This document shows, one piece after another, positions 1 through 56,411 of a stretch of DNA of 56,411 bases. Position numbers and translations under genes: made by a program. The notes beneath the pieces are model-generated. The model did not search any database, was not told the origin of the DNA, and saw nothing but the letters and a program-made list of their open reading frames with translations. Origin of the DNA: a bacterium (GTDB lineage Bacteria > Myxococcota_A > Bradymonadia > UBA7976 > UBA1532); contig JAWKQS010000026.1 of assembly GCA_041389985.1 (NCBI GenBank), positions 1-56,411 of the forward strand. The letters run 5' to 3'. Position 1 is the stretch's first letter. Each line of letters begins with the position of its first letter.

Positions 1-3000
1 GCCAGGTGGACGAGGCGACCGACCGCGACGGCGATGGCTACGCGGGCGATGATCCCGACCCGGCCCGGGTCGACTGCGACGACGACAACCCCCGCGTGCA
101 CCCCTTCCGTGGGGAAATCCCCTGTAATGACGTGGATGAAGACTGCGTCGGCGGCGACCGCTGCGTGATGGGCGACCTGGACGGCGATGGCGTCTCGGCC
201 CCCGAGGACTGCGACGACCACGACGCAGGCAGCTTCCCCGGCGCACCCGAGCGCTGCGGGGACGGCATCGATCAGGACTGCCAGGGCGGGGACATGCCCT
301 GCGCCCCCGGCGACACCGATCAAGACGGCTTCGTGGATGGCGACGACTGCGGCGAGGGCGACGCAAGCCGCTACCCGGGGGCGCCCGAGAAGTGCGGCGA
401 CGGCATCGATCAGGACTGCGACGGCGCCGACATGCCGTGCGGGGGCGCCGACGGCGACGGGGATGGCTACCTGGCCCCCGCCGACTGCGCCGACGATGAT
501 CCCCGGGTGGGTCCTGGCGCCGTCGAGCTCTGCGACCGGGTGGACAACGACTGCGACGGCCGCGTCGACGAGGGCAACCCGCTCCAGCTCCCGGGGGGTC
601 CCCTCATGCCGCCCACCTGCGGCACCGATGTGGGCATCTGCCAGACGGGGCCCCATGTCTGCAGCCGCGCCGAGGGGGCGGCAGGCGCCGAGATCCTCTG
701 CCTGGCCATCCCGCCGGCCGAGGAGGTCTGCGATGGCCTCGACAACGACTGCGATGGCACCGTCGACCAGCCTCCGGCCGGCCAGGATCGCCTCGCCGAC
801 GAGGGCGTGGAGCCCTGCGGCCCCGAGCGCGAGGTCGGCGCGTGCCGTCGGGGCCCGCTCTACTGCGCCCAGGGCTCCCTGAGCGCCTGCCGCGGGGCCG
901 TCGAGGGTCTCGACGAGAGCTGCAACTCCCAGGACGACGACTGCGACGGCCGCATCGACGAGGGCGAGGGCGGCGGCGCCCTCACCGAGCCCTGCTTCGA
1001 CGGCGATCCGGCGGCGGCCAGCCAGGGCATCTGCCGGGAGGGCCAGCGGCGCTGCGAGGACGGCGCCTTCACGGCCTGCGAGGGGCAGCTCCTGCCCGCC
1101 GAGGAGGGCTGCAACGACCTGGACGACGACTGCGACGGCCAGGTGGACGAGGGGCTGGCGCAGGCGTGCTACACCTTCGATCCCGCCACCGAGAACGTCG
1201 GCCGCTGCCGGGGCGGCGCCCGCCAGTGCGTCAACGGCCAGTTCGGCGACTGCGAAGGCCAGGTCGGCCCCAGCCCCGAGCTGTGCAACGACCGGGACGA
1301 TGACTGCGACGGCCGCATCGATCAGTTCACCGAGGACTGCTTCGGCGAGGCCGGCCAGGGCCTCGATCCGGCGCTGATCGGGCGCGGCCTCTGCGAGGCG
1401 GGCTTTCGCACCTGCCGCGACGGCGTGGTGGGGGAGTGCGTCGGCGACATCCTCCCCGAGGCCGAGATCTGCGATCGCCTCGACAACGACTGCGATGGAT
1501 CGGCCGACGAAGACTTCGACTTCGTGAACGATCCCGCCAACTGCCGCGAGTGCGGCCGCCGCTGCAACGCGGGCGAGGGCTGCTGCGCCAGCGCCTGCCG
1601 GCCCCTGAACACCCCCGAGAACTGCGGCGCGTGTGGCCGCACCTGCGGCGACGACTCCGATCGCTGCGCCGCGGGGGCCGGGGGGGCCGAGTGCCGGTGC
1701 GGCAACGGCCCCGCCTGCGAGGACGGCCTGCGCTGCATCAACGGCAGCTGCCGGTGTGTCGAGAACACCGACTGCGGCGCGAACGAGCTGTGCTGTGACG
1801 GGGTCTGCCAGGCCACCGATCCGGGCGTGCAGTGCCAGGCCTGTGGCGTCGCCTGCCCCGACGGCCGGGCCAACGACTGCCGCGATCGGACGTGCAGCTG
1901 CGGGGCGGGGGGCGCGTGCCCGCCGGCCACCGTCTGCACCCAGGACGCGGGGCAGGGGCCGTTCCTCTGCCGCGGCTGCGGCAGCAACGCCCAGTGCCCG
2001 GCCGACGCCATCTGCTGCGGCGGCGTCTGCACCCCCAGCTCGGCCGCCGGCAACTGCACCGGGTGCGGGGTCGGCTGCGATCCCGACGTGGCAGACTTCT
2101 GTCAGGGCGCCGAGGAGAGCGTGGCGCGCAGCTGCGTCTGCGGCCAGAACGGCGTGGCCTGCCCCGATCCCCTGGTCTGCGTCTTCGGGCGCAACGCCGG
2201 CGAGGGCCGCTGCGCGGAGTGCCGCAACGACGCCGACTGCGGCGCCAGCTTCCCCGGGCGTCCCCGCTGTGTCGACAACGTCTGCCGGGCCTGCAACCCC
2301 CGCGACCAGGCGCCGTGCGGAAACAACCAGATTTGCTGTGGTTTTCAGTGTGTCGCCACCGGCGCCGGCCCCGGCGCCTCCTGCGAGCAGTGCGGGGTGT
2401 CCTGCGCCCAGGAGCCCACCAACGTCTGCACCGGCCGCACCTGCGGCTGCGGCAACGGCCCGCCCTGCGTCGCCGGCTCGGCCACCCCCCTCTGCGATGA
2501 TCCCCGCGGGGTCTGCGTGCAGTGCCGCACCGACGTGGACTGCGCGGGCAACCCGGCGGGCGGGCAGTGCGTGAACAACCGCTGCGAGGCCTGCGATCCG
2601 GGCGACCAGGCCGGCTGCCTGCGCACCCAGCTCTGCTGCAACGCCGGCGGGCGGCCCGTCTGCCAGGAAGCCAACATCAACGCGCGCCAGTGTGAGAGCT
2701 GCAACAACGACTGCGATCCCCTGGCCACCAACCGCTGCAACCAGCGCGTCTGCCAGTGCGGCAACAACCCGCCCTGCGCCGGCGGTACCCCCGTCTGCGA
2801 TGACGCCGCAGGGGCCTGCGTGGAGTGCACCACCGACGCCCACTGCAACGGCCACGCGCGTGGCAGCCAGTGCGTCGCCAACCGCTGCCAGCCCTGTGAT
2901 CCCGCCGATCACGCCGGCTGCGGTGCCAACCAGCTCTGCTGTGGCGACCTGGCGGCGCCGAGCTGCCAGGCCACCGGCGCGGGGGCAGGCCAGCAGTGCG

Positions 3001-5620
3001 AGAGCTGCGGGGTCGCCTGCGATCCGACCGCCGCCGCCGACCGCTGCACCAACCGAAGCTGCGCCTGCGGCAACGGCGCCGACTGCGGCGGCGCCACGCC
3101 CTACTGCGTCGGCGCGGGCTGCTTCGAGTGCCGCAACAACAACGACTGCCCGGCCAACGAGCTGTGCTGCGGCGGGACGTGCGAGCCCACGGGGGGCGGC
3201 GCCAACGAGCAGTGCGAGGCGTGTGACGTGGCCTGCGACCAGGAGGCCTCCAACCGCTGCGGCAACCGCCGGTGCAGCTGCGGCAACGACGCGGCGTGCG
3301 CGGGCGACCGCCCCATCTGCCGGGAGGACGCCCAGGGCCGGGCCCTCGGCTGCGTGCAGTGCCTCGCCGACGCCGACTGCGCCGACTTCCCGGGCCACCA
3401 GTGCGTGGACTTCAGTGCCGCCCCTGCGACCCCGCCGATCACGCGGGCTGCGACGAGGCGGCCGCGGCCCCCATCTGCGACGCGGCCAACGCGACCTGCC
3501 GCGGCTGCGGGAGCGACGCGGAGTGCGCCGCCCGCCCGGGTCCCCGCAACGAGTGCGTCGGCAGCCGGTGCGAGCGCTGCGATCCGGCGAACAACGCGGG
3601 CTGCCCGCCCGAGTCGCCCATCTGCGACCCCATGAACCTGTCGTGCCGCGCCTGCGCCAACGACGGCGAGTGCGGCGGGGCGCAGCAGTGCGTGGCCGGT
3701 CGCTGCCGCGGCTGTGACCCGGCGACGGACGAGCCCTGCAACGGGGTCACGCCCATCTGCGGCGTCGACTTCGTCTGCCGCGCCTGCGGGGCCGACGGCG
3801 AGTGCCTCGACAAGCCGGGCAACGAGAACGAGTGCGTCGACGGCCTGTGCCGCACCTGCGATCCGACGGGCCACGCCGGGTGCCAGGCGGGCGAATTGTG
3901 CTGTGGTTTCCGGTGTGTTCCCGTTGCGCTCGATAGCTGCCAGGCCTGCAACGTGGCCTGCGATGCCAACGCCGCCGACGCCTGCGCCGACCGGTCGTGC
4001 CGCTGCGGCGACGGCGCCGCGTGCGCTGGTCAGACGCCGTTCTGCGACGCCGGAAGCTGTGTGGGTTGCCGCGACGACCAGGACTGCGCGGCCGGCCGCC
4101 CCGAGTGCGTGGGGGAGCAGTGCGAACGCTGTGATCCCGTGGACGACGCGGGCTGCAACCCCGACGGCGTGACGCCCAACTGCGACGCCGGCAGCCTGAG
4201 CTGCCAGGGCTGCCGGGTCGACGCCGACTGCGCCGGCAACCGCAACGGTGGCCAGTGCCAGGCGGACGGCTCCTGCGGCGCCTGTGATCCTCGCGACAAC
4301 GCCGGCTGCAGCGGCCGGACGCCCATCTGCCAGGCGGGCGCCGATCCGGTCTGCCGGGCCTGCGGGACGGACCAGGAGTGCGGCGGCAACAACCAGTGCG
4401 TGCGGGCGGGGGCCCTCACCGGCGCCTGCGGCCAGTGCGATCCGGCCGACGGCGCCGGGTGCAACGCCAACAGCGCCACCCCGATCTGCGACGCCGCCAC
4501 CGCCCGCTGCCGGGCGTGCGCCGCCAACGCCGAGTGCACCGATCCGGCCAGCCCCGCCTGCGTGGCGGGCGGCTCCTGCAAGGCCTGCAACCCCGCCAAC
4601 TCCTTCGGCTGCAACCCGGCGTCGACGACGCCCATCTGCGAAAACGCCCAGAATCCGCGATGTTCCGCGTGTCGGGATGACGCGCAGTGCGCCGCGCTGC
4701 CCCAGAGCCCGGGCGGGCAGTGCATCGGCGCCGGGGCCGCCACCGGCTCCTGCCAGGAGTGCGATCCGGTGGGCGGCGCGGGCTGCGTGCTGGCCAGCCC
4801 CACGCCCACCTGCGACCCCACGGACTTCTCGTGCCGCGGCTGCCAGAACAACGCCGAGTGTCGGGCGCCGCAGCCGTTCTGCGTGGGCGCGCAGTGCAAG
4901 CAGTGCGTCACCGCGGCGAGCTGCGCGGGCCAGATCTGCCAGAACAACACGTGCGCCAACTGCGCCCAGAACGCCGACTGCGCGGGTCACCCCCTGGGCG
5001 GCGTGTGCGGGGCCGCCCAGGCGGGCCGGTGCGGGTGCAACGCCGCAGCCGACTGCGCCGGCACCGCCTGCGTCGCCCAGGCCTGCGTCCTCTGCGTCGC
5101 GAACGGCGACTGCGCCGGCAACCCCTTCGGCGCCGTGTGCGGGGCCGCCGTGCCCGGGGTCTGCGGCTGCGACGACGCCAGCGACTGCAACGGCCGCACC
5201 TGCCAGGGCGGGAGCTGCGTGCCCTGCGGTGACGACGCGGACTGCGTCGGCAACCCGGCGGGCCCGGTCTGCCAGATCGCCGACGGCGGCACCTGCGGCT
5301 GCAGCCAGGACGCCGAGTGCGGCGGCCTGCTCTGCACCGCGGGCCGCTGCCAGCCCTGCGTGAACGATGGCGACTGCGCCGGCCACCCCCGCGGCCCGAA
5401 CTGCGGCGCCGCGGCGGCCGGTGAGTGTGGCTGTGCCCAGGACGATGAGTGCGGGCTGCAGGTCTGCGACCAGGGGGCCTGCACCCCCTGCGCAGCCAAC
5501 GCGGACTGCGTCGGCCACCCCGCCGGGGCCATCTGCGGCGCGGCCCAGGCCGGGGCCTGCGGCTGCAACGCCAACGGCGACTGCGGAGCCGGCGCGTGCG
5601 TGGACAACCGGTGCCAGTAG
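1..5620 (+). CDS. Giant secreted cysteine-rich repeat protein, 5'-partial (runs off the window start, no signal peptide seen). The N-terminal ~500 aa are MopE-like putative metal-binding repeats (DxDGDG...[27 protein letters not shown]). The rest is dozens of CxxC/CGCGNGxxC 'Myxococcus cysteine-rich repeat'-type units. There is one apparent -1 frameshift near 3410 (ORFs 6..3635 and 3272..5620 join).
   Basis: ORF 6..3635 reads a regular Cys repeat until ...QCVDF, then becomes Pro/Ala/Arg junk. Frame 2 resumes the repeat ...[24 protein letters not shown]3 is high in the proposed frames. Stop TAG at 5618-5620. Confidence 0.7.
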
Positions 5621-8600
5621 CCCGCCGCCTCGCCCTCGGCCTGCTCGCGGGCCTCGCGTCGTGCGCGACGGACGAGGCCCGCGCCTCGATCTCGTGGTCG
5701 GCGCGGGCGAGCGGGTGGGGTCGGTGCAGGCCATCGTCTTCTTTCTGCGGGTGGGAGACGGGGCCGACCGGGCCGTGGGCGCCAGCGTCTTCGACCTGGC
5801 CCAGCAGGGGGTGGATCTCACCGCCGGCCCCCTGAACATCGGCCTGCGGGCCCCCGATGACGTCCAGGGGCAGGTCACGGTCTATGCCGTGGGCTGCGCC
5901 GGGGCCATCACCTGCCGCGATGACGACCCCGTCGTCGTCCCGACCTGCCGGTGCGACCAGCCGGTGGCCCTCGGCGCCGTGCGGGGCGAGGTCAGCGGCG
6001 TGACGCGGCTGGCGCTGCAGCTCGAGCCCTTCGCGCCCGGCTGCGACCTCGATGGCGACCTCTTCGTCGCCTGCACCCGGGGCGAGGTGGACACCGGGTG
6101 CTGCGTCGGCCTGCCGGCGGCGGCGGCCGCCGCCGTGAACGACTGCCACGACCTCCCGCGGCCCGCCGACTGCGCGGCCCGCGGCTGCGACGCCGCCACC
6201 GCCCACCCCTTCCGGCCGGCCGAGCTGCCCGGCGAGCAGGCCACCACCGACCTCCAGCGCCGCCGCCACCTGGCCTGGTGCGACGATGGCCTGGACAACG
6301 ACTGCCGGGGCGAGGCGGACGTCCCCTGCGCCGAGGTCGACGCCGACGGCGACGGCTCGCCCGCCGCCCAGGACTGCGATGACGCCGATCCCCGGCGCTT
6401 CCCGGGCAACCCCGAGATCTGCGCCGACGGCATCGACCAGGACTGCGACCAGTCCGACCCGCCCTGCGACGCCGACGGGGACGGGGTCTACGCGGAGCGC
6501 GACTGCGACGACAACGATCCTCGCCGCTTCCCGGGCAACGCCGAGATCTGCGGCAACGGCATCGACGACGACTGCGATGGCCGCGACCCGGTCTGCATCT
6601 CGTCGGATCTGGACGGCGACGGCTTCCTCTGCGCCATCGAGCCGCGCTGGTCCCCGCACGTCTGCATGGGCGTGGGCGCCGACGGCCAGCCCCTCGACTG
6701 CGACGACCTGGACGCCGGCATCCACCCCGGGGCCACCGAGCGCTGCAACGACCGCGACGACGACTGCGACCAGCTCATCGACGAGGGCTGCCCGGGACCG
6801 GACGTCGACGCCGACCGAGACGGCGTCCCCGCCGTGGATCGGGGCGGCACCGACTGCAACGATGCCGATCCGACCATCCACCCGGGCGCTCCCGAGCGCT
6901 GCGGCGACGCGATCGACCAGGACCATGACGGCCGCGACGACGCCTGCGCGGCCGACGGCGACGGGGATGGTTTCGCGGGAGCCGCCGACTGCGACGACAC
7001 CGCGCCAGCGTCCGCCCCGAGGCCCCGAGGTGGTGCAACGGCATCGACGACGACTGCGACGGCACCGTGGACAGGGAGCAGCCGCCCCAACCACCTCGGC
7101 CGACGATCCGGCCCGCGAGGCGCGCTGCGGCAGCCCCTGCCTGGGCGTCGCCTGCGCCTGCCTGCTGGCGCCCCTGGTCTGCTCCACCAACGGGCGCCCG
7201 AGCAACGCCGTCGAGCCGGCCGATCGCTTCGTGTGCCTCGGGGTGGTGGCCGACGAGGTCGCCGAGCGCTGCAACGGCATCGATGACGACTGCGATGGCA
7301 CCCTGGACGAGCGCACCGAGATCGCGTGCCACACCTACGCCGACGCCTCGGTCAACGTGGGCATCTGCCGGGAGGGCCTGGCCTGGTGCAGCGCCTCCGA
7401 GGGCGCCGGCATGGAGCAAAGGCGCGCCTGCGAAGAGGAAATCTCCCCCCAGGAGGAGACGTGCAACGCCCAGGACGACGACTGCGACACCCGGGTCGAC
7501 GAGCGGCCGGAGGGCGGTCCCCTGGAGCGACGGTGCTTCCCCAGCTATCCCGGCTTCGACTCGGCCCGCCCCGGCAACGGCCCCTGCCGCCGCGGCACCG
7601 AGACCTGCGGCGGGGGCGCCTGGGGGCCTGTGTCGGCGCCACGGGCCCGTCTCCGGGACGTCTGCAACGGCTCGACGACGACTGCGACGGCCGCCAGGAC
7701 GAGACGTGGCGGGTCGGTGATCCCTGCCAGGTGGGGGTGGGCGCCTGCCTGCGCCGCGCCACCATCGTCTGCCAGCCCGACGGCACCAGCGACTGCGGCG
7801 CTCAGCCCGGCCGCCCGGCCATGAGACCTGCAATGGCATCGACGACGACTGCGATGGCGCCACCGACGAGGGCTTCGGCCTGGGTGACGCCTGCACCGTA
7901 GGGGTGGGGAGTGTCTGCGGCTTGCTCATCTTAGCGGGGCGGCCAGCCTGGCTGCGGCGTCCAGCCCCCGCAACCCCGGCAGCTTGAGGTCTGCGACGGC
8001 AACGACGACTGCGACGGCATGACCGACGAGGCGTGCTCCAACGCCTGCGGCATGTGCGGCGCGGTCCCCGCCGAGCGCTGCGACAACCGCGACAACGACT
8101 GCGATGGCAGCGTGGACGAGACCTTCGACGTCGGCGATCCTGCCTGGCAAGCCCGGGCGGGGGCTCTGACGCCGGGCGTCCAGCGTCTGCCGGCAGGATG
8201 GCACCGCGCGGTGCAACGCGATGCCGGGCGCGCCCGGCATGGAGGCCTGCAACGGCGAGGACGACGACTGCGATGGCCGCACCGACGAGGGCTTCGCGAA
8301 TGTGCCGGAGCTGTGCAACGGCATCGACGACAACTGCAACGGCACCGTCGACGAGCGGCCTCGGGGGGAGGGCGATGCCTGCGACACCGGCGAGCCCGGC
8401 GCCTGCGGGGCGGGCGTGCAGACCTGCCGGGACGGCCGGCTCACCTGCCCCCAGAGCATCAGCCCCATCGCCGAGCGCTGCGACACCCTCGACAACGACT
8501 GCGATGGCCGCACCGACGAGGGCTTCGGCGAGGAGGTCGAGCGCTGCAACGGCGTGGACGACAACTGCAACGGCGCCACCGACGAGGGCACCTGCATGGG

Positions 8601-12203: not shown

Positions 12204-13858
12204 AGCCGGCGCATCCTTCAGGGCGCGGATCGCGGCGTCGATCTCGCCGCTCATGCACAGGTTGTCCAGGAACCCTCGGCCCCGGGCCCGCTTGAGGTCG
12301 GGGAGAGCAGCGCCGTCGCCCCAGGCTCCCAGCGCCTCTGCCGCCTTGCGGCGCCGCTCGCAGTCACCCAGCCGCAGATCCCGCCGCAGCGCCGCGAACC
12401 GCGCCGGCCTCGCCTCGGGCGCCTCGGCCTTCTCGAGGGCGTCGACGAGGCGCCAGCGGGCCCGCAGTCCGGCCTCCGCCACCGCGGCCAGCAGTCTGGG
12501 CCCGGCGCCCCGGCCCGCCGGGCCCGCCAGCAGGCCCACGGCCTCGTCCGCCTCCCGCTCGTCGAGCACCTCCAGCAGGGCGGGCAGCACGCGCGGATCC
12601 GCCGCCAGGGCTGCGTCGTCGACGAAGGCCGCGGCGAGATCGGCGAGGCCGGCCTGGATCTTGTCCGCCTTCAGGCGGCCCAGACCGCGTCGCAACAGGC
12701 GCTGCGACGCCGATCCCTCCTCCGGGTGGCTCTCGATCCACACGAGGGCCGCGGCCGGGTTCTCGGCTAGCAGGGCGTCCGCCTCGGCCAGCGCCGCGGC
12801 CGCCGCCGGCGGCGAGGTAACCGGCGCTACCTCGGACGCCGCCGATGCCGCAGCGACCACCGGGCGAGGCTCGGGCGCAGCCGGCGCCAGCGCGAGCCCG
12901 ACCACGACCCCCAGCGCGAGCGCCCCTCCGCCGATCGCGGCGGACCGGCGCCAGCCGGCCGTCCGGCGACCATGGCCGGGCGCACGGCCGCCACCGCCGG
13001 GCGCACCGCCGCCACCGCCGGCGCGGCCCAGCCCTCCAGCCGGGCCAGCACGGCCGCGCCATCGGCCGGGCGGAGCGTGGGCTCCTTCTGCAGGCAGTCG
13101 CTCACCAGCGTCGAGAGCGCGGCCGGCACGGCCTCGGGCAGCGCGTCGGGGGGCTTCTGGGTCAGCTTGAAGAGGATCTCGGGCACATGCTTGCCCGTGA
13201 ACGGCGGCCGCCCCGCCAGGAGCGTGTGCAGCAGGACGCCCAGGGCCCACACATCGGTAGCCGGCGTCGCGCGCTGGCCCATGGCCTGCTCCGGCGCCAT
13301 GAACTCCGGTGTGCCGAAGACGCTGCCGTCGCTGGTGAAGCGGGTGTGTCCTCGCCCACCCGCTCGATGGCCGCGATGCCGAAGTCCAGGAGCCGCAGGC
13401 GATCCGCCGCGCCGGGGCTGCGCTGGAGGAGCAGGTTGTCGGGCTTCAGGTCGCGATGGATGATGCCGAGCTGGTGGGCCTCGCCCAGCGCCCCGCCACC
13501 GGCGCGAGCAGGTGGACGGCCCGGGCCGCCGGCACTGGCCCGCCCGCCAGCAGCCGACTCAGCGGCTCGCCGTCGATGAACTCCAGCACGATGAACGGCC
13601 GCCCGTCGGAGAGCTGGCCCAGGTCATGGATGCCCACGACGGCCGGGTGGGCGAGGCGGGCCGCCGCCCGCGCCTCCCGCCGAAGGCGCTCGGTGTGGGC
13701 GCTGGCCGACTCCCGCAGGACCTTGATGGCCACCGGCCGATCCAGGTGGGTGTCCACGGCGCGGAAGACCCACGCCATGCCGCCCGCTCCCAGGAGCGAC
13801 TCGATCCGGTAGCGCCCCGCGAGCACGGCGCCGGTCTGGAGAGTGCCGGGGCGTCCAT
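12192..13858 (-). CDS. Ser/Thr protein kinase with a TM helix and a C-terminal helical domain. The coding frame is interrupted by at least 3 single-base frameshifts (near 13830, 13495 and 13345, the last two in g/c runs, plus one near 13000).
   Basis: N-lobe ORF 13446..13826 ([12 protein letters not shown]). The catalytic loop HRDLKPDN and DFG are readable only in a third frame. APE and DVWALGV are in ORF 12827..13300. [19 protein letters not shown] and the C-terminus are in ORF 12192..13250. The 3' end overlaps the esterase 3' end by 12 bp (convergent). Confidence 0.6.
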
Positions 13859-43050: not shown

Positions 43051-46000
43051 CCACCCGCGTGCTGGTGCTGGCCGGCCTGCTCGCCGGCTGCGGCGCCACC
43101 CCCCCGCCCGTGAAGGACGCCTCGCGGGTCGAGCGCCTGCGGGTGCAGATCACCAAGGCGCGCAACGCCATCGCCGAGACGAATGGCGCGCTGGCGCGGG
43201 CCCGCGGGACGCCCTACGTCACCGAGCTCGAGGTGCGGCTCGCCGAGCTGCTCAGCGAGGAGGCCCGCTACCACTACCAGGTCGCCCAGGAGCGCGAGAG
43301 CCGCGCGGGGGGCCGCAGCGAGCGCAGCATGCACGTCCCCCAGGTGCGGCTGCTCAAGGAGCGCGCCATCGAGCTGTACGAGCAGGTGCTCACCCGGGAG
43401 ACGCCCCTGGCGCCCCGCGTCCTGTTCAACGTGGCCCAGGAGCACCGGGAGCTGGGCGACTACGACGCCATGCACGCCGCCCTGCGCCGACTCGTCGCCG
43501 AGCACCCCCAGCACCCGCTGGCCGCCGAAGCCCTGCTGATCATGGGCGATGACGCCTTCGACCGCGGTGATCTGGCCGCGGCCGCCCAGGCGTGGGTGCC
43601 CATCACCCAGGGCCCCCCCACTCGGGCCACGGGCCTCGCCTGGTACAAGCTGGGCTGGGTGCGGGTGAACCAGGGGGACTGCAAGCGGGCTCTGGAGAGC
43701 TTCACCCGCGCCATCGGGGCCGCCGACGCGGGCCCCGCCGCGGTGGACGCCATCGGGCCGCAGTCGGATGTGGACGTCCGCCGCGAGGCGCTGGTGGATC
43801 TGACGTGGTGCCTCAGCCGCGAGGTGCCACCCGACCAGGCGGTGCCGTTCGTGCAGAAGCTCGCAGCGGATCGGGGCGCCTACGTGGCCGCCCTGGCCCG
43901 GCTGGCCGACCGCTTCAGCCTCATGGATCAGGCGGTGGGCGCCATCGCCGTCAGTCGCGAGCTGCTGGCCCTGGGGCCCGACGGCCAGGCCCGGCTCGAG
44001 GACGCGCGCATGCTGCACGCCGCGCTGCGCAAGACGGAGGCGTACGACCACATCGGCGACGACGTGCGCCTGATCGTCCAGGCCGTGCTCCGCCACGTGC
44101 GGCGCCCCGACGTGGGCGCCGAGGCCCGCGCCCGCCTGCTGGAAGAGTTCGAGAAGTACGGGCGCGACCTCGGCACCCGGGCCCAGGCGCGCATGCAGAA
44201 GCCCGGCGCCCCGGCGCGGCCGGGCCTGGCGCCGCCCGAGCAGGTCGCCGCGGCCTACACCGCGTGGCTGGAGGCCTTCCCCGAGGACGTGAACCGGCTG
44301 GCCGTGCTCCAGAACCTGGCGACGGTCCTCGCAGACGCCGGGGACGCCTTCGGCAGCGCCCGCCGCTCGCTGGAGGCCGGCCTGGCCCTCGCGCCCGGCG
44401 CCGAGCGCACCCGCGCCCTCTACGATGCCGTCGTCCAGTACCAGAAGGCCCTTGGGCCCGACACGCGCCGCACCCCCCTCGAGCGCGTCCTGGGCCGCGC
44501 CGGCCTGCGGCGGGCCGCCGGCGAGCTGCTGACCGGGACGCTCCCCGCCGACCAGGCCCGCCGGGTCAAGTTCGCCATCGGCGAGACCGACTACGACGAG
44601 GGCCGCCTCCAGGCCGCCATCGATCGGCTCACCGCCGTCGCCTTCGAGCACCCCGGCACCCCCGAGGGGGACGCCGCGGTGCGGCTGGTGCTTGACGCCC
44701 ACAAACGGCGCGACGACTGGCTGGGCCTGATCGCGAGCGGCCGCCGGTTCATCGCGGCGGACAGCCCGGTGGCAGCCGCCCTCAAGACCGAGCTCTCCCC
44801 GCTCGTGGCGGCCGCCGAGCAGCGCCAGCTCGATGATCTCTCCCTCGCGGCCGCGGGGGTGGACGGCGCGGACGTGGCGGCCGAGCTGCAGAAGTTCGCC
44901 GAGCGCTACCAGGGCACCTCTCTCGGCGAGCGCGCCCTGCTCAACGCCTTCGTCGCAGCGCGGGCCGACGGCGACACCGCCGCGCTCTACCGGATGACGG
45001 ACGAGATCCGGACCCGCTACCCCCAGTCCACCCAGCTCCCCGGGGTGCTGGCGACGGCGGCGCGCACGGCTGCCGCCCGCTTCGAGGTCGAGCGCGCCGT
45101 GCCCTGGTTCCAGCAGGCCGCCGCCGCCGATCCCGAGCGCCAGGCCACCCTGCGCCTGGCGGAGGGGCGCCTGCGCGCGGCCATGGCCGACGGCGCGGGC
45201 GCGGCCGACGCCTTCCGCCAGGGCCTCGCCTCCGCGAAGGAAGGGCCGGCGCGGGCCCAGCTCGCCGCCGCTCTCGCCGAGCAGCTCGAGGCCACCGTCC
45301 CGCCAGTGGCGGTCATCCAGCAGCTCGAGCCCCTGGCCACCACCGGCGATGCGGAGGTCCTGGCCCGGCTGGGGCTGGCCCAGGTGCGGGCCGGCCGCGG
45401 GGACGTGGGCGAGGCCACCCTGCAGAAGGTCCTCAACCTGGGGCGGCCGCCTCGGACGGGGCGCGCGCGCGGGCCTGGTATGGCCAGGCCGAGGCGCTGG
45501 CCGCGACCCTCGCCAGCTACCAGCCCCAGGGTGACATGGAGTCGATCACCGAGCTGGTGACGCTCATCGAGGTCACCGAGCAGGCCTACCTGAAGGCCGC
45601 CCGGCAGGTGGATCCGGTCTTCACGGCCGCTGCGCTGGGCCGGCTCGCCCACCTCTCGCAGGACGCCGCACGCCGCCTGGCCGCCCTGCCCCCCGCGCTC
45701 ACGAGCTCGGCGGGCATCCAGGAGGCGATGGGCAAGCGTGTGAAACAACTGGAGAAATCGGCACAGGATGCCCTGGCCGCCTGTGCTGAGCTGGCCTGGA
45801 CGCGCCAGGTCTTCAACGCCGCGACGCGGGCGTGTCTGCTGGGGCAGGCGCCGGCCCGGGATCCCGTCGGGACGGACGCGCTCTCGCCGCGGACCCCGGC
45901 CCCCAACGCCCCCGGCCTCGACGAGCCGCGGGCCCGGCTGGCCCGGGACCCCGAGGATGTAGAGGCCCTGCGGGCGCTGGGCGAGATCCTGCTGGACGCC

Positions 46001-46839
46001 GGCGACGCCCACGTCGCGCGCCTGGCCTTCGCCCGCGCCAGCCAGGTGGGGGGCGGGCCCGTCGAGGCCAACCTGCTGGGCCTGGCCAGCCACCGGGCCG
46101 GCGACAAGACCGGCGCCCTGGAGGCCTTCGCCCGGGCCGCCGCCGGGGGCCTGGAGGCCGGGCGGCAGAACCTGGCCGCCACCCTGCGCGAGCCGGCCTG
46201 GCGGCGGCCGCCGACGCCGCCCTCGCCCGCCGGCCGGCGGGCCGCGAGGGCGGGCGCCTGCTGGGAGGTCGCGATGAGGGCTCGCCGCGCTCCTGCGTCC
46301 GGGGATGCTGGCCGGGTGCGGCGGCCCCCGCGTCCAGCCCCTCTCCGTGGGCGATCCTCGCCTCCGGCCGACGCGCGGCGCTGGATCGCCGACGCCGAGG
46401 ACGCGGTGGTGGCGGCCCGCGCCCGGGCCAGCGACGCCGCCGTGCAGCAGCGCGACGCCCGCCGGTACCTCGATCGCGTCGAGGCCGCGGCGGCGACGCT
46501 GGGCGCGGTCGCCGAGCCCTGCGGCGGCTCGCCGAGGCCCGGCGGGATCACGCCGACTCGGAGCTGGGGGTGGCCCAGGCCGAGCTGGGCCTGGCCGACG
46601 CCCGCCGCGAGGAGGCCATGGCCGAGACGGCCATGCGGCACGACGTCGCCGTCTACGATCTGGCCCCCATCGCCGCCGACGTCGAGGGCTGGCGGACGCG
46701 CACGGCGGCGGCCCGCGACGCCCGCCAGCAGCAGCGCGACGCGCTCGAGGCCGCCACCCAGGCGTGGTGGCAGGCGTGGCGCCAGTACGCCGCCAGCGGC
46801 GGCGACACCCGCGTCCTGTGGCGGGATCTGACCCCGTGA
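43035..46839 (+). CDS. Large TPR-repeat lipoprotein (about 1260 aa). There are frameshifts near 45450 (g-run) and about 46540. An independent small gene starting near 46270 cannot be excluded.
   Basis: MHRALTTRVLVLAGLLAGCGATPPP.... ORF 43035..45560 continues as 45536..46831 (...WYGQAEALAATLASYQPQGDMESITELV...), then the 45832 frame, ending ...DTRVLWRDLTP*. Confidence 0.5.
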
Positions 46840-46840
46840 C

Positions 46841-47396
46841 GTCCCGCCCCTGGCCGCTGGTGGTCGTCGCCCTCGCGGCCTGCGATCCCCGCCGACACCT
46901 GCGGCCAGGACGGCCTGGCGGTCCTCCCGGATGCCGTGCAGTTCGGCGACGTCCGCCCCGCGCGGCCGACGACCGGCGATCCCACCGCGGCCGACCAGGT
47001 CCCCGCCGCCGCGTCGTGCTGCTGCGCAACACCTGCGCCGCCACGCTCACCCTCAGCGAGATCTGCCTCATCGAGGACGCCCGCAACGGCGACGCCAGCT
47101 CCCCGCGTTCTTCCTGGAGCAGCCCGAGCGCACCCAGCTCGCCGCCGGCGACACCGCCGCCGTGCGCATCACCTACGACCACCTGGACGCCAACACCGAT
47201 CGCGACCTCGATGGCGAAGGCGCGATCCCGACCGCGCCATCCTGGTCATCCAGTCCACCGCCGCGGGCACCCCACCCGGGTCATCCCGGTCTGCGGCCGC
47301 ATCGTCCCGGCCGGCGAGGAGGCCGCCCCGACGGACTGCCCCGCGCCCTTCACCATCCCGGCTGGCGAAGCCATCGCCGACCTCTGCACCCGATGA
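46841..47396 (+). CDS. Small lipoprotein, DUF1573 / PapD-like beta-sandwich by pattern. It is heavily frameshifted.
   Basis: (M)TSRPWPLVVVALAAC... The blocks VQFGDVRP..., VLLRNTCAATLTLSEICLIEDARNGDAS, AAVRITYDHLDANTDRDLDGEGAIP and VIPVCGRIVPAGEEAAP are each readable in different frames. Confidence 0.3.
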
Positions 47397-47830
47397 GGTG
47401 GCTGGCGCTGCTCGGCCTGCTCGGCCCGCTCGCCGCCTGCGCCAGCGCCGAGGAGGAGTTCACCCAGGGCCGCCTGGAGGCTCTGTGCGACGGCGCCATC
47501 CCCATCTGCCGCCTGCGGGCCGGGTGCGTCCTCGGCGACGACACCTTCGCCCGCGGCCGCTTCCCCGGCGCCCAGCAGGTCATCGTGCGCTCCCCCGTGG
47601 ACGCCGCCGAGCTCCAGGTCCGGCTCCTGCTCACCGATCTCGTTCACCCGGGCACCGAGCTGCTGGTCCAGGTCCATGGCCTCGGCTTGCGGCACCCTGG
47701 AGCAGGCCCAGCTGGTGGACGTCGTATTCCGCCTGGCCGGCGACGACGGCATCCTCGAGTTCACGCTGCCTCTGACCGAGCGCGGCGACCACCTGCTCAG
47801 AGATCTACGCCGACGAGCGCAGCCTACGTC
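47394..47830 (+). CDS. Small lipoprotein (MRWLALLGLLGPLAAC) with a frameshift near 47690. A lower-GC intergenic stretch follows it.
   Basis: ORFs 46931..47842 and 47676..47993 join at ...VHGL|ACGTLEQAQLVDVVFRLAGDDGILEF.... Confidence 0.3.
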
Positions 47831-47932: not shown

Positions 47933-49840
47933 ATGGAGACCCCGCTGGAACCCCTTCGGCTTTCGGTCGGGGCCTGCTACAACAGGGGGGTGAGCCAGGA
48001 ACGCCCCATCTCCGACGCCGAGCTCGACGCCCTCGACGAGAGCCTCTCTCCGGGCCCGGTCTCCCCCGATCTGCGGGTGGCGCAGCTCGAGGCCGCCCTC
48101 GGCCAGCAGGAGGCCCGCCTCGCCGGCATGCTGCGCATCGCCGGCAACCTGGGCCAGAGCCGCGATCCGAAGAAGGCCATGAAGGCCATGGTGGTCGACA
48201 TCAGCCAGCTCCTGCGGGCGGATCGCACCACCATCTACGAGGTCCGGGCCGACGAGGGGATGCTGCGGGGCCTCGCCGTCGAGGGCGAGGTGAGCCTGGA
48301 GGTGGGGGTGCCCGTCGGCACCGGGATCGCGGGCCTGGTGGCCGAGCGCGGGCGGGTCATCAACCTGAAGGATGCCTACCTGCACCCCGCCTTCGATCCC
48401 AAGTTCGACAAGCTCACCGGGTACCGCACGCGCTCGATGCTGGTGGTGCCCATGCGCAACTCGCGGCGCGAGATCATCGGCGTCGTGCAGGTGCTCAACA
48501 AGTGCGATGGCTACTTCACGGTCGATGATCAGGCGCTGCTGACGGCCCTGGCCGCCCAGGCCGCCATCACCCTGGAGGCCCTGCGGCTGCAGCTCGCCTT
48601 GAACCTCTCCAACACCGAGCTCTCGGAGCTGTCGCGCCAGCTCCGCCAGAAGGTCCGCGAGCTGGAGCTGCTGTACCAGAACGAGCAGGCCATCGCCGAC
48701 GCCGCCGACGAGGCCGATCTGGCGGAGCAGATCCTGAAGCTGGCCTGCCGGGTGGGGCGCAGCGAGGTGGCCGCGCTGTACCTGGCCGACGCCGAGGCGG
48801 GCAGCGGCCCCGCGTGGGTGCGCATGGCCGGTGCCGGGCCGACGGCGCACATCCCGCGTATCGAGATCGGCGAGGGCATCGTGGGGAAGGTGGCCAGCCG
48901 CGGCGAGGTGCTGGTCCTGACGGGCGGTGCCTTCGAGAAGCACGCCATCCCCCACGAGCTCGGCGGTGGGTACCCGCTCGAGGTCGACGACGCCGTCGCG
49001 GTGCCGCTGCTCGACGGCGACGTCACGATGGGGACGTTCGCGCTCATCAACCGCAAGGATCCCGCCCGCCGGGTGGACGCCGAGGATCGCCAGCTCGCGG
49101 TGCTGGTGGCCGGGCAGGTCGCGCGGGCCGTGGCCCGGCTGCGCTCCCGCAACGACGCCCAGCGCAAGGACCGCATGATGACCATCGGCCAGATGATGAG
49201 CGGCGTGCTGCGACCTGCGCGGGCCGATGTCCGTCATCAGCGGCTACAGCCAGCTCATGGCCGGCGAGGAAGACGCCCAGCAGCGCGCGGAGATGTCGGC
49301 GGCCATCCGGCGCAAGATCGAGCTCTTCAACGACATGACCCGCGAGGTGATGGCCTTCGCCCGTGGCGAGCGGCACGTGCTGTGCCGGAAGGTCTACATC
49401 GAGCAGTTCGTGCGGGCGGTGCGCGAGTCGGTGGAGCCCGAGTTCGCGGAGCGCGGGTGGCCTTCGAGTGGGAGGTCCACTCGGCCCGCGGTCTCTCCTT
49501 CTTCGACGAGAGCAAGATGCTGCGGGTGGTCACCAACATCGCCCGCAACGCCCGCCAGGCCATGGGGACGACCGGGTCGTTCCGCTGGATCATCGAGACA
49601 CGCCCGAGGGCGGCACCCGCATGCGCATGCGAGACACCGGCCCCGGCATCCCCGAGAGCATCCGCGCCCGCCTCTTCGAGGCGTTCACGACCGTCGGGAA
49701 GCAGGAAGGCACCGGCCTGGGCCTCGCCATCGTGCGCCGCATCGTCGAGGACCACGGAGGGACCATCACGTTCACCACCGAGACGGGCAAGGGCACCGAG
49801 TTCGTGATCACCCTGCCCCCCGCCGGCGGAGCAGGCCTCG
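47933..49840 (+). CDS. Cytoplasmic sensor histidine kinase with two GAF domains, a HisKA and a HATPase_c domain. There are at least 4 frameshifts (near 49210, 49455, 49575 and a C6 run near 49830).
   Basis: GAF-like blocks in ORF 47912..49807. The H-box ...LRGPMSVISGYSQLM... is in ORF 49227 and the G2 box GTGLGLAIVRRIVEDHGGTITF is in ORF 49363. With one C removed from the C6 run the gene ends ...ITLPPPAEQAS* in a GTGA overlap with the next start. Confidence 0.6.
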
Positions 49841-50733
49841 TGAAGCACCTGAGTTCATTGAGTTTTCTGGCGGCGATCGTGGCGACGGGCTGCCGGGAGA
49901 CGCCGGCGCCCGCCCAGCCCGCCGCGCCGCGGTCGGCGGCTGCTGCGTCCGCGCCTGCCTCCGCCGCCGCGACGGACGCCGCGCCCGCGACGGACGCCCC
50001 GGCCGCGCTCCCACCCGGCAACGAGGCCCAGGAGGCCGCGCTGGAGGCCGGCCGCGCCGCCCTGCGGAGGGTCGGGATGACGAAGCGCTCCGCCAGTTCA
50101 AGGCGGGCGCCGAGGGCCCGGTGACCGGCGCGGCCGTCTCGGCGGCGCTCGCGGCCGCCGCGATGCTGGAAGAGCAGAAGCGGCTGGACGAGGCCGAGGT
50201 CCTCTACCGCGGGCTGCAGGATCGGGCCGGCCATGTGGCCGAGGTGCAGTTCGTCGTCGCGCGCTTCCTGGCCGGGCGCGAAGCCCCAGGAGGCCATCGC
50301 CGCCTTCCGGGAGGCGATCCGGCTCCAGCCCGACTTCCTGCCCGCCTATCCGCTCCTCAGCGCGCTCCTCGTGTCGGCGGGCCAGCGGGACGTGGCGGCC
50401 GAGCTGCTGGTCGACTACGAGCGGCGCCTGGCGGCCCGCATCCGACGCGTCCAGACCGAGACCGCCAGCGACGCAGAGCGCCTGGCCATCGTGGATCTGC
50501 TGGCCGTGCTGGTGGACGAGCGCGCCGAGGAGACGCTGCGGGGGTTGCTGGGCGCCGAGTCCCCTCGGTGCGGATGGCGGCGGCGGGCGCCGTGGCCGAT
50601 CAGGACGAGCCCGCGGCCCTCGTGGCCCTGGCCGGAGGCGCTGGGCCGGGAGAAGGACTACACCGCCCAGCAGGTCATCCGCGCCGCCTTGAAGCGGGCC
50701 CGGGATCGGGCCGCGGGCAGCCTGCAGCCCTGA
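49838..50733 (+). CDS. TPR-like lipoprotein (MKHLSSLSFLAAIVATGC from GTG) with about 3 frameshifts.
   Basis: The signal-peptide codons are locally AT-richer. Helical repeats ...AIAAFREAIRLQPDFLPAYPLL.... End ...RARDRAAGSLQP* at 50733. Confidence 0.4.
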
Positions 50734-50740: not shown

Positions 50741-52876
50741 TCAGCCGCCCTTCGTGGGCACCGGGAGCCGGGGCAGGCGCTCCTCCAGATCCAGCTCCAC
50801 GCGGCGGCGCCGCAGCTCCACCGAGACCACCCGCACGCGCAGCCGATCGCCGATGGTGTAGCGGTTGCCGGTGCGTCGCCCCAGCAGGCAGAAGCCGTCG
50901 TCGTCGAGGCTGTAGAAGTCGTCGTCGAGGGCATCCACCGGCACGAACCCCTCCACCAGGTGCGGCTGGAGCTGTACGAAGACGCCCATGCCCGTCACCC
51001 CCACGATGACGCCCTCGAAGGACTCCCCGATGTGCTGGCGCAGATAGAGCGCCTTGTACAGATCGAGGACCGTTCGCTCCGCGTCCACCGCGACGCGCTC
51101 CCGCCGGCTGCACTGGTCGGCCACCTCGCCCAGGTGGCGGGTCGTCGGAAGCTGCTCGCGCCGGAGGATGCCCTTCAGCAGCCGGTGCACCACCAGATCG
51201 GGGTAGCGCCGGATGGGGCTGGTGAAGTGCAGGTACGCGGGCGCCCCCAGGCCGAAGTGCGGGGCGACCTCCTCGTCGTAGACCGCCTTCGCCATCGAGC
51301 GCAGCACCAGGAGCCCCAGCAGGCCGAAGAGCGGGTGCTCGGCGAGATCCGCGAGCCACCGGGACAGGCCATCGGCCGTCGGCCGGCCCAGGCCCTTGAT
51401 GGACACATCCAGCAAGGTGGCCTGCGCCCGCAGGCGCGCGAGGCCGTCCACCGGCGGGTTGCCGTGGATGCGGAAGATGGACGCCTGGTGGCGCCGCACG
51501 AAGAGCTCCGCCGTGGCCTCGTTGGCCACCAGCATGGCGTCTTCGATCATCTGGTGGGCCTCGTGGCGATCCGAGGCGCGCACATCATCGATGCCTCCAT
51601 CCGTCGCGAAGAACACACGCGGCTCGGGCAAGGCCATGTCCAGGTAGCCGCGCTTGCGGCGGCGGCGGCGGCGCACCCGCGTCGCGTCCCGCAGGGCCTC
51701 CAGCACCGGGCGCAGCGCCTCGAAGTCCGGGCTGTCGTCGGCCGCGGGCGGCGCCCCCATCATGCCGAGCATCCGCGCCGCCCGGTCATAGGTGAACCGG
51801 GCATGGCTCCGAATGATCGCCTCGGCGAACTCGGCGTCCTCGATCTCGCCCTCGGGGGTGATGGTGCACTCCACCACCATGGCGAGCCGGTCTTCCTCCG
51901 GCCGCAAGCTGCAGAGATCACTGGACAATCGATGCGGCAACATCGGGATGACGCGGTCGGGCAGGTAGACGGAGAAGCCGCGGGCGCTCGCCTCCTGGTC
52001 CAGGGGGCCATCGGCCTGGACGTACCAGGACACATCGGCGATGGCCACGGTGAGGCGCCAGCCCCCGACGGCAGCGGCTCGACATGCACCGCGTCGTCGA
52101 AGTCGCGGGCGCTCTCGGGATCGACGGTGATCAGGGGGCGGCCGCGCAGATCGAGTCGGCGCGCGATCTCCTCCTCGAGGGATGCGATCGGGCAGCGAGG
52201 CCGCCTCGGCCTCGGCGGCGGACGGGAAGCGCAGCCGGAGGCCCAGGTCATGGACCACCAGGTCGGTCTCCTGGCTCGCCACGTCATCCCCGCTGAAGAC
52301 GCGGATGACCCGGCACGCGGCCCCGTGGGGGTGATCGGGGTAGCGGGTGAACTCCGCCGCGACCAGATCGCCATCCTGGGCGTTGCCGGGCTTCTCGACG
52401 ATGACGTGCTCGGGCAGGCGGGTGTCCTGCGGGTGGACGATGCGCGCGCGAGCCGCCTCGCGGTAGGTGCCGACGAAGGTGGCGGTGCCGCGCTCGAGGA
52501 CGTCGACGATGATCCCCTCGGTGCGCCCGCGGTTGCCCTCCCGGGTCTCCACGACCACCCGATCGCGGTGCAGCGCGTCGCCGAGGTTGCGGCTGTCGAT
52601 GTAGAGGTCCTCGCCCTCCCCCTCCAGGTTCACGAACCCGAAGCCGCGGTGGGTCATGATCAGCGTGCCCGTCCGGCGGGCCTCGGCGTCGATGCGGCCG
52701 TACCGGTTGCCACGAAAGCGACCAAGGCGGCCCTCCTCGACGAGGGCGTGGAGCCTCAGGCGAAACGCCGCCCGCTCGGTGCGATCGACGCCCAGGGCGC
52801 GCGCGAGGTCCCGGAGCGCGGCGGTGCGCGGGGTGGGCGGCAGGCTGCCCAGGATGTCTTCGTCAGGCGGGAGCAC
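50741..52876 (-). CDS. RNase R / RNase II family 3'-5' exoribonuclease (cold-shock OB domains, RNB domain and S1 domain). Two compensating frameshifts lie near 52100-52200.
   Basis: ORF 50741..52876 with RNB-domain blocks. The segment ...EEEIARRLDLRGRPLITVDPESARDFDDAVHVEPL... is readable only in ORF 51760..52374. S1-like C-terminus. Confidence 0.75.
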   Translation of the reverse strand: MLPPDEDILGSLPPTPRTAALRDLARALGVDRTERAAFRLRLHALVEEGRLGRFRGNRYGRIDAEARRTGTLIMTHRGFGFVNLEGEGEDLYIDSRNLGDALHRDRVVVETREGNRGRTEGIIVDVLERGTATFVGTYREAARARIVHPQDTRLPEHVIVEKPGNAQDGDLVAAEFTRYPDHPHGAACRVIRVFSGDDVASQETDLVVHDLGLRLRFPSAAEAEAASLPDRIPRGGDRAPTRSARPPPDHRRSRERPRLRRRGACRAAAVGGWRLTVAIADVSWYVQADGPLDQEASARGFSVYLPDRVIPMLPHRLSSDLCSLRPEEDRLAMVVECTITPEGEIEDAEFAEAIIRSHARFTYDRAARMLGMMGAPPAADDSPDFEALRPVLEALRDATRVRRRRRRKRGYLDMALPEPRVFFATDGGIDDVRASDRHEAHQMIEDAMLVANEATAELFVRRHQASIFRIHGNPPVDGLARLRAQATLLDVSIKGLGRPTADGLSRWLADLAEHPLFGLLGLLVLRSMAKAVYDEEVAPHFGLGAPAYLHFTSPIRRYPDLVVHRLLKGILRREQLPTTRHLGEVADQCSRRERVAVDAERTVLDLYKALYLRQHIGESFEGVIVGVTGMGVFVQLQPHLVEGFVPVDALDDDFYSLDDDGFCLLGRRTGNRYTIGDRLRVRVVSVELRRRRVELDLEERLPRLPVPTKGG

Positions 52877-54815: not shown

Positions 54816-54897
54816 CAACAAACTAGAAAAAAGTCTGCGACACGCGCCGCGACTGACCGATGGATCGAGAGGCCCCCACCACGCGGAGGACTCTCCC

Positions 54898-56274: not shown

Positions 56275-56411
56275 AGTCGAGGCCCTGCGAGGGCCTTCTC
56301 GATGTCCACCTGGATGGTGGCCTTGTCGCGTAGTTCGCCGATCCAGGCGCGGGCTTCGGCGTCGCTGACGGGGGTGCGCTTGAGCTCGGCCTCGAGCTCG
56401 GCGCGGACGGC
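56275..56411 (-). CDS. Possible 3' fragment of a minus-strand gene entering from beyond the window (...AVRAELEAELKRTPVSDAEARAWIGELRDKATIQVDIEKAL...). Very tentative.
   Basis: High-GC3 reading frame at the window edge. No stop found in that frame before the low-GC repeat region, so the end point is unknown. Confidence 0.2.

What the first reader, a model, noticed from the sequence alone, without database searches (positions are those of the whole stretch)
1..56411. Pervasive single-base frameshifts at G/C homopolymers in otherwise conserved genes: assembly indel errors rather than pseudogenisation
Well-conserved genes lose frame exactly at g/c runs and resume in another frame with perfect family motifs. 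The sites I see are these.
- polA loses its canonical C-terminus AHLSVPL.VDV...NW..IH at a G7 run near 13925.
- The minus-strand kinase needs 3 shifts: gggg near 13495, ccc near 13345 and one near 13830.
- DUF4388 shifts at cagggg|tgg near 25355.
- The 511-aa gene shifts near 30390.
- The big TPR gene shifts at ctgggg|cgg near 45450.
- The histidine kinase shifts at least 4 times, including a C6 run near 49830 that hides its stop.
- RNase R shifts out and back near 52100-52200.
- The cysteine-rich gene pair shifts about 7 times.
- Other large single-copy genes are intact: the FtsH-like, RavA-like, 1071-aa, PGI and DUF1552/1592 genes and the two PEGA kinases.

This pattern is typical of homopolymer-biased read error in a high-GC genome. 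Gene calls on this contig will be fragmented unless it is polished. Any 'pseudogene' conclusion here is unsafe.
Basis: seen in the sequence. Interest (0 to 1): 0.55.

Follow-up and report, generated by a model that had tools for sequence, protein, structure and literature searches.

The report
Assembly indel errors breaking many genes
About 44 one- or two-base insertions and deletions break or garble 14 otherwise well-conserved genes in this very GC-rich metagenome contig, and the evidence says they are sequencing or assembly consensus errors, not real gene loss.

Summary
A codon-usage frame model and frameshift-aware alignment to orthologues both find about 44 frame changes in 14 genes.

- All breaks are 1-2 nt indels.
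- 6,549 frame-corrected codons hold no internal stop codons.
- Identity to orthologues is as high after the shifts as before them.
- Housekeeping catalytic motifs are hit.
- The sister species is in frame at the same sites.
- A second public assembly of the same population (GCA_041390005.1) differs from the window by 285 indels against 250 substitutions. It carries the frame-restoring allele at about 9 window sites.

- Only about half of the sites lie at runs of 4 or more (48% against 12% expected).
- The polA run is G6, not G7.
- Deletions outnumber insertions.
- Events are strongly clustered.

This is an artefact. It matters only as a warning about the deposited annotations.

The parts
3411..3416 (+). 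-1 frameshift inside the giant Cys-rich (MopE-repeat) gene 1-5617
   Evidence: The codon-model frame switches here. A paralogous internal repeat at 2816-2922 has one more base at TTCAG|TGC, and adding it restores the QCVxxxCxxC module.
7008..8169 (+). 8 frameshift events (7008, 7085, 7627, 7650, 7672, 7821, 7934, 8166) in the second Cys-rich gene 5684-8700. The sister species has this as one continuous ORF.
   Evidence: tblastn HSPs of the L001 ORF fall in alternating frames. The alignment offset changes and the frameshift-aware alignment agree.
12927..12928 (-). -1 in the low-complexity linker of the Ser/Thr kinase (less certain)
   Evidence: The sister MAG also changes frame in this linker, so this event is ambiguous.
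13346..13347 (-). -1 in the kinase catalytic domain, between the DFG and APE motifs
   Evidence: The Pfam Pkinase domain is contiguous across the junction. The L001 orthologue is in frame.
13492..13496 (-). -1 at a C4/G4 run in the kinase, before the HRD motif
13846..13851 (-). -1 just after the kinase ATG (13856-13858). The start codon is out of frame with the kinase domain.
   Evidence: DNA alignment to L001 shows a single-base gap in CCCCGG(G).
13939..13944 (-). +1 in a G6 run (C6 on + strand) that removes the last 21 residues of polA. The true stop is at 13874-13876.
25353..25356 (-). -1 at a C4 run that splits the DUF4388/PatA_N gene (25150-26435, about 429 aa)
   Evidence: Homologues P0203-P0208 match frame -1 and then frame -3. 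The second assembly has the same indel.
30385..30389 (-). -1 in a C5 run that splits the ivWA gene of the FtsH ternary system (29761-31254)
   Evidence: Pfam ivWA residues 262-407 span the junction. The second assembly has the same indel.
39406..39407 (-). -1 that splits fvmX6 (38357-39752). The sister species has one 463-aa gene here.
45438..45443 (+). -1 at a G4 run in the large TPR gene (43035 to about 46270)
   Evidence: The window-only frame switch coincides with an offset change against L058.
46190..46193 (+). -1 in the TPR gene
   Evidence: The second assembly has an extra T at 46193, which restores the frame.
46341..47815 (+). About 15 events in three small genes, orthologues of L058 8313-8858, 8855-9415 and 9412-9882
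   Evidence: The second assembly restores the frame at 46890 and 47688.
49211..49211 (+). -2 in the histidine kinase at the HisKA H-box region
   Evidence: 8 of 8 orthologues agree. The second assembly has the extra AC here.
49458..49459 (+). -1 in the histidine kinase
   Evidence: 8 of 8 orthologues agree.
49595..49598 (+). Frameshift in the HATPase_c domain (net -1; most simply an extra GA)
   Evidence: 8 of 8 orthologues agree. The second assembly lacks the GA.
49816..49821 (+). +1 in a C6 run. It hides the kinase stop TGA at 49841-49843 and fuses the kinase in frame to the next gene, whose GTG start is at 49840.
   Evidence: DNA and three-frame comparison with L058. One search agrees.
50062..50634 (+). 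4 events (50062, 50283, 50566, 50631) in the HEAT-like lipoprotein gene 49840-50730
   Evidence: The second assembly restores the frame at 50064 and 50281-2.
52062..52068 (-). -1 at a C5 run in RNase R. This is the return leg of the out-and-back shift.
   Evidence: 7 of 7 orthologues agree. See the alignment.
52174..52177 (-). +1 in RNase R. This is the outward leg. 36 codons are read off frame, which replaces EEIARRLDLRGRPLITVDPESARDFDDAVHVEPL.
   Evidence: TIGR02063 scores 583 bits as the sequence stands and 653 bits after correction.

Best explanation
The window is a stretch of a metagenome-assembled genome from a Myxococcota/Bradymonadia-like bacterium with 74% G+C. Its consensus sequence carries uncorrected small indel errors.

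I found about 44 events, roughly 0.8 per kb. Density reaches about 5 per kb at 45.4-50.7 kb and is only about 0.1 per kb at 20.5-38 kb. Net one-base losses outnumber net gains about 2:1. Half of the events sit at G/C runs of 4-6. The rest sit in ordinary or dinucleotide-repeat context.

Each error moves the reading frame. Because off-frame ORFs stay open for a long way at 74% G+C, three kinds of miscall result:
- genes split into overlapping ORFs;
- genes fused to their neighbour (the histidine kinase);
- genes that keep an intact ORF while a stretch is read off frame (RNase R).

The genes themselves are most likely intact in the organism.

Shown here: the positions of the indels, the absence of decay, and the disagreement between assemblies. 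Inferred: that the source is long-read (Nanopore-type) consensus error with incomplete polishing.
For: 1. Frame changes are real and specific to the window.
- The codon-model Viterbi path gives about 35 same-strand in-gene switches in the window. The same model gives 3-4 in 44 kb of the sister MAG.
- The switches coincide with changes in alignment offset, and the sister is continuous there.
- The frameshift-aware alignment pins them down. It reports 0 events in six control genes covering about 2,000 codons.
- Independent orthologues from JGI, ENA and Logan give the same sites.

2. There is no decay.
- The corrected path holds no internal stop codons in 6,549 codons. Its only 2 stops are in the last gene, G32c, probably where that alignment runs past the gene's own stop.
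- Identity downstream of the first shift equals identity upstream, for example 0.88/0.88 for the histidine kinase and 0.89/0.87 for RNase R.

3. Housekeeping functions are hit.
- The polA C-terminus is lost.
- The RNase R DPESARDFDDA motif is lost while the ORF stays open. TIGR02063 scores 583.2 bits, below the 597.85 cut-off, as the sequence stands. It scores 652.7 bits in one stretch after correction.

4. The second assembly disagrees.
- GCA_041390005.1 contig JAWKQU010000052.1 aligns at 96.7-99.3%.
- It differs by 285 indels (213 of 1 nt, only 14 multiples of 3) against 250 mismatches.
- It has the frame-restoring allele at about 9 places: 46193, 46335/46338, 46890, 47688, 49211, 49597, 49814, 50064 and 50281-2.

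5. Homopolymer enrichment is 48% against 12%.

6. Published work describes exactly this artefact in Nanopore assemblies and MAGs, and describes residual errors after short-read polishing (PMC9262707, PMC8812927, PMC8518188).
Against: - No reads or base qualities could be examined.
- About 11 events, including 25353-56, 30385-89, 39406 and 45438, show no difference from the second assembly within 8 nt. Agreement between the assemblies may therefore reflect a shared systematic error, but it could also reflect real indels.
- Half of the events are not at homopolymers.
- The strong clustering has no demonstrated cause. GC content does not explain it.
- The sequencing platform is inferred, not known.
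Confidence: 0.9

Rival explanations
1. Genuine pseudogenisation: a strain or population undergoing gene decay, with real frameshift mutations in about a third of the genes in this region.
For: - The indels are in the deposited sequence, and at least one deposited protein reflects them (MEZ4473549.1).
- About 11 events have no nearby difference from the second assembly.
Against: - The corrected codons hold no internal nonsense codons, and conservation is undiminished downstream.
- The targets include polA, the RNase R active site and a kinase catalytic core.
- Compensating out-and-back pairs occur.
- About 9 sites are repaired in the second assembly, and the indel:substitution ratio of about 1:1 is unlike natural variation.
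- The sister species is in frame at these sites.
Confidence: 0.04
2. Biological recoding: programmed ribosomal frameshifting, transcriptional slippage, or phase variation at homopolymers.
For: - About half of the sites are at short G/C runs.
- Two of them, including the conflict-system ivWA gene, are identical in both assemblies.
Against: - The runs are only 4-6 nt, and half of the sites have no run.
- The sites are not conserved. Orthologues in the sister species and in more distant relatives read straight through.
- There are about 44 sites in 56 kb, in unrelated genes, with up to 7 in one 186-codon gene.
Confidence: 0.01
3. Consensus blurring from mixed strains. The contig merges reads of co-existing strains, and the indels arise where strain differences disturb the consensus. 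This is still an artefact, but its cause is not platform homopolymer error.
For: - Events cluster at 45.4-50.7 kb and 7-8.2 kb.
- Mismatches between the two assemblies also rise to 31-55 per 2 kb at 40-48 kb, against 1-3 per 2 kb at 26-38 kb.
- Half of the events are not at homopolymers.
Against: - The second assembly is itself very noisy in that stretch, so the mismatches may simply be its own errors.
- No read data are available to show strain heterogeneity.
Confidence: 0.05

Closest known systems
Homopolymer and other small-indel consensus errors in Nanopore (R9-type) assemblies and MAGs, which fragment gene calls (Sereika et al. 2022, PMC9262707)
   Same: - 1-2 nt indels with a deletion bias.
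- Enrichment at homopolymers.
- Split or truncated ORFs in otherwise conserved genes.
- Different indel sets in different assemblies of the same organism.
   Different: - Only about half of the events are at runs of 4 or more, and those runs are short (4-6 nt).
- The events are strongly clustered rather than evenly spread.
- The platform of this MAG is not known to me.
Residual errors left after short-read polishing of long-read assemblies, especially in repeats and poorly mappable regions (Polypolish paper, PMC8812927; the hybrid activated-sludge MAGs of PMC8518188 note the same difficulty)
   Same: - Long clean stretches (for example 26-38 kb) alternate with error-dense patches.
- One dense patch is the internally repetitive Cys-rich gene.
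   Different: - The 45-51 kb patch is not obviously repetitive.
- Whether this MAG was polished at all is unknown.
Genuinely pseudogene-rich bacterial genomes such as Mycobacterium leprae or recent host-restricted symbionts (from my own knowledge)
   Same: Many conserved genes are interrupted by frameshifts.
   Different: - Such genomes also show nonsense codons, deletions and relaxed constraint, and they spare core replication and RNA-turnover enzymes.
- None of that is seen here.

Membership tests
Assembly/consensus indel artefact | Gene breaks are caused by 1-2 nt indels and not by substitutions, and the corrected frames are fully open | tested here: met
   About 44 events, all of +/-1 or +/-2 nt. 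No internal stop codons in 6,549 corrected codons; the only 2 lie at the end of the G32c alignment, probably past that gene's stop.
Assembly/consensus indel artefact | Errors are enriched at homopolymer runs | tested here: met
   48% of events lie within 2 nt of a run of 4 or more, against 12% of random positions (binomial p about 1e-9). The other half of the events are elsewhere.
Assembly/consensus indel artefact | Indels are not reproducible between separate assemblies of the same population, and the indel:substitution ratio is far above natural variation | tested here: inconclusive
   285 indels (14 of them multiples of 3) against 250 mismatches over 39.6 kb. About 9 window events are repaired in the other assembly, but about 11 show no nearby difference. 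The other assembly comes from the same submission batch.
Assembly/consensus indel artefact | Accurate reads contradict the consensus at the sites | not testable with these tools
   No read data are available. The protein searches found no same-species sequence from JGI, ENA or Logan. The best non-self hits were 87-88% identical.
Genuine pseudogenes | Relaxed constraint: nonsense codons and lower conservation downstream of the first lesion | tested here: not met
   no internal stop codons, and downstream identity is about equal to upstream identity.
Genuine pseudogenes | Lesions are fixed in the population | tested here: inconclusive
   About 9 sites differ between the assemblies and about 11 do not.
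Programmed frameshift / slippage / phase variation | The shift site and its signal are conserved in orthologues | tested here: not met
   The sister species and more distant orthologues are in frame at all tested sites.
Programmed frameshift / slippage / phase variation | A slippery heptamer or a long (about 8 nt or more) homopolymeric tract at the site | tested here: not met
   The longest run at any site is 6 nt, and half of the sites have runs of 3 or fewer.

The most novel reading that the evidence does not exclude
A minority of the indels that are identical in both assemblies and sit in G/C runs could be real. The candidates are the ivWA gene of the FtsH ternary conflict system (C5 run, 30385-30389) and the neighbouring DUF4388 gene (C4 run, 25353-25356). 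If real, they would be on/off slippage switches in a defence or signalling locus.
Probability: 0.04. Interest if true: 0.35.

Novelty: not a real feature. Interest (0 to 1): 0.08.

Why it matters
There is no new biology here. The value is quality control.
- About a third of the genes in this window are miscalled in the public record.
- Some miscalls escape length-based checks. RNase R (MEZ4473549.1) has an intact 711-aa ORF, but 36 residues of off-frame text replace its catalytic motif. The histidine kinase is fused to its neighbour.
- Any claim about pseudogenes, gene loss, domain architecture or novel proteins that rests on this contig is unsafe until it is polished. The same holds for the even noisier sister assembly GCA_041390005.1, and to a lesser degree for HK-STAS-MYXO-10.

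Tried and rejected
- A simple GC3 sliding-window frame plot was too noisy on strand. I replaced it with a codon-model Viterbi path.
- A concatenated query of five frame-corrected proteins timed out in the search for homologous proteins. A two-protein concatenation returned nothing. Single fragments worked.
- Looking up the window's own contig through P0001 found nothing on record.
- The locus around the JGI RNase R orthologue P0004 was not syntenic beyond the PEGA kinase, so it gave no help for the neighbouring genes.
- The second assembly (L054-L056) is too noisy to serve as a reference. I used it only to ask whether each indel is shared.
- I set aside three +1 events in the PEGA kinase linker (10297-10482) and a -1/+1 pair in the gene at 17619-17642. 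These are probably alignment artefacts in low-complexity sequence, or errors in the sister genome.
- I first thought the TPR shift might be a normal gene boundary, because the sister's 833-aa gene call aligns end to end. I rejected this when the sister proved to have its own shift about 280 nt upstream.
- I did not scan metagenome contigs for same-species short-read contigs. The protein searches showed no same-species sequence outside these two MAGs.
- A literature search for the accession found nothing.

Full report
**Setting.** The window has 69-78% G+C throughout, so long ORFs appear in all six frames. I trained a codon-usage model on clear genes and ran a seven-state Viterbi path (three frames per strand plus non-coding). 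It returned a gene map with many same-strand frame changes that are not stop/start boundaries. At these places the old frame stays open for tens to hundreds of bases, and the new frame opens well upstream.

**Origin and comparison material.**
- The RNase R ORF (50744-52876, minus strand) is identical to NCBI protein MEZ4473549.1 apart from the GTG start codon. That protein sits on a 120,411-nt MAG contig.
- Exact-protein look-ups found a second public assembly of the same population, GCA_041390005.1 contig JAWKQU010000052.1 (39.5 kb). It aligns to window 14931-54577 at 96.7-99.3% identity. Its protein accession, MEZ4466629, is from the same submission batch.
- The closest other genome is the hybrid Nanopore/Illumina activated-sludge MAG HK-STAS-MYXO-10 (PMC8518188). 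It is syntenic at 78-86% nucleotide identity over window 3.9-20.5 kb (L001) and 37.9-54.8 kb (L058).

**Checking the observation.** I used four approaches.

1. Domain continuity. Frame-corrected proteins give single uninterrupted Pfam matches across the junctions. These are Pkinase 1-253/263, ivWA, HATPase_c and RNB 1-325/326.

2. Alignment offset. The window-to-sister alignment changes its offset (mod 3) at the positions where only the window's frame path switches. This holds at 7001, 7084, 8183, 13348, 13495, 45442, 46194, 47006, 47099, 47273, 49209, 49456, 49596, 50063, 50289, 52063 and 52178. The same codon model finds only 3-4 switches inside the sister's own genes. They correspond to window positions near 14073 (polA), 11149, 45164 and the kinase linker.

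3. Frameshift-aware alignment. A protein-to-DNA alignment that allows frameshifts, run against sister orthologues, located the events to within a few bases. It found none in six control genes covering about 2,000 codons.

4. Independent orthologues. Proteins from JGI, ENA and Logan data gave the same positions:
   - 8 of 8 histidine-kinase orthologues for 49211, 49458 and about 49595;
   - 7 of 7 RNase R orthologues for about 52174 and 52067;
   - 5 of 5 DUF4388 homologues for about 25354.

**Site details.**
- polA: the run is G6 on the coding strand (13939-13944). Deleting one G restores MEGAHLSVPLGVDVAIGDNWADIH*.
- Kinase: the ATG is out of frame with the kinase domain because one base is missing at 13846-51.
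- Histidine kinase: the C6 run at 49816-21 carries one extra C. In the correct frame the gene ends ...ITLPPPAEQAS-TGA (49841-43), overlapping the GTG start of the next gene. That next gene encodes a lipoprotein. As written, the two genes are fused.
- RNase R: the ORF is unbroken, but 36 codons are read off frame. They replace EEIARRLDLRGRPLITVDPESARDFDDAVHVEPL, which is conserved in all 11 aligned homologues.
  - As written, the protein scores 583.2 bits on TIGR02063, below the 597.85 cut-off, in two stretches.
  - After correction it scores 652.7 bits in one stretch.
  - This probably explains the generic name NCBI gave it.
- First Cys-rich gene: a paralogous internal repeat shows a single missing base at about 3415.
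- ivWA: a G5 run on the coding strand needs to be G6 to read YVGQGGLGEVD.

In total there are about 44 events in 14 genes.

**Statistics.**
- 48% of events lie within 2 nt of a homopolymer of 4 or more, against 12% for random positions (p about 1e-9). The other half do not.
- Event types are 23 of -1, 10 of +1, 8 of -2 and 5 of +2.
- The density is very uneven: about 5 per kb at 45.4-50.7 kb and about 0.1 per kb at 20.5-38 kb. There is no matching difference in GC content. I have no demonstrated cause for this clustering.

**Error or decay?**
- The frame-corrected paths of 12 broken genes hold 6,549 codons and no internal stop codons. The only 2 stops are in the alignment of the last small gene, G32c, probably where it runs past that gene's own stop.
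- Identity to the orthologue is the same after the first shift as before it.
- The two assemblies of the same population differ by 285 indel events against 250 substitutions. Of the indels, 213 are single-base and only 14 are multiples of 3. The other assembly has the frame-restoring allele at about 9 places: 46193, 46335/46338, 46890, 47688, 49211, 49597, 49814, 50064 and 50281-2.
- These patterns match consensus error, as described for Nanopore assemblies and MAGs and for incompletely polished hybrids (PMC9262707, PMC8812927, PMC8518188). They do not match natural pseudogenes.
- Programmed frameshifting and phase variation are excluded. Orthologues read straight through, the runs are short or absent, and the number of sites is far too high.

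**Remaining doubt.** About 11 events have no nearby difference from the second assembly. They include the homopolymer sites in DUF4388 and ivWA. No same-species sequence from other sources appeared in the protein searches. The platform (long-read, probably Nanopore) is my inference.

**Verdict.** The interpretation as assembly error is supported at about 0.9 confidence. This is not a biological feature, and its interest is low except as a warning about the deposited annotations.

Noticed in passing
window 29761-39752, minus strand: A complete FtsH ternary conflict-system operon. It comprises ivWA with its N-terminal helical region, bpMoxR, a 1071-aa protein with no Pfam hit, an fvmX3 analogue, an AAA+/Peptidase_M41 FtsH-like protein, fvmX5 and fvmX6 (Pfam families). 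The first and last genes carry frameshift errors.
   Followed up: partly
window 1-5617 and 5684-8700, plus strand: Two giant cysteine-rich proteins built from Cu-binding_MopE-type motifs and CxxC(D/N)P modules. The first has at least 1,872 aa and runs off the window start. The second has about 1,010 aa and is a single ORF in the sister species.
   Followed up: partly
window 50744-52876, minus strand (NCBI MEZ4473549.1): The deposited RNase R protein has a full-length ORF, but a 36-residue off-frame insert replaces its catalytic motif. Checks based on ORF length would not flag it. It falls just below the TIGR02063 cut-off, which probably explains its generic name.
   Followed up: yes
L001 near 12486, 13637 and 15469; L058 near 7212: The sister MAG HK-STAS-MYXO-10 (GCA_020633435.1) has its own frameshifts. 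They are in polA, in the kinase linker, in the esterase-like gene and in the TPR gene, whose 833-aa call ends in the wrong frame.
   Followed up: partly
L054, L055, L056 (GCA_041390005.1, JAWKQU010000052.1): This second assembly of the same population is far noisier than the window. Near its contig end it reaches about 1 indel per 50-100 bp, mostly deletions, and not only at homopolymers. Its gene calls are heavily fragmented.
   Followed up: yes
window 54767-56411: Synteny with the sister species stops after the PEGA kinase. The 316-aa ORF at 54875-55846 has no Pfam or NCBIfam match and is absent from the sister locus, which has a rotamase gene there.
   Followed up: no
window 12960-13010, minus strand: The kinase linker holds a 21-nt tandem duplication (PAVAAVR twice). 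Both the window and the sister MAG change frame in this GC-rich low-complexity stretch.
   Followed up: partly
window 45400-50700 compared with 20500-38000: Frameshift events are about 50 times denser in the first stretch than in the second, with no difference in GC content. The second assembly is also worst from 40 kb onwards. The cause could be depth, strain mixture or failed polishing, and is unknown.
   Followed up: no
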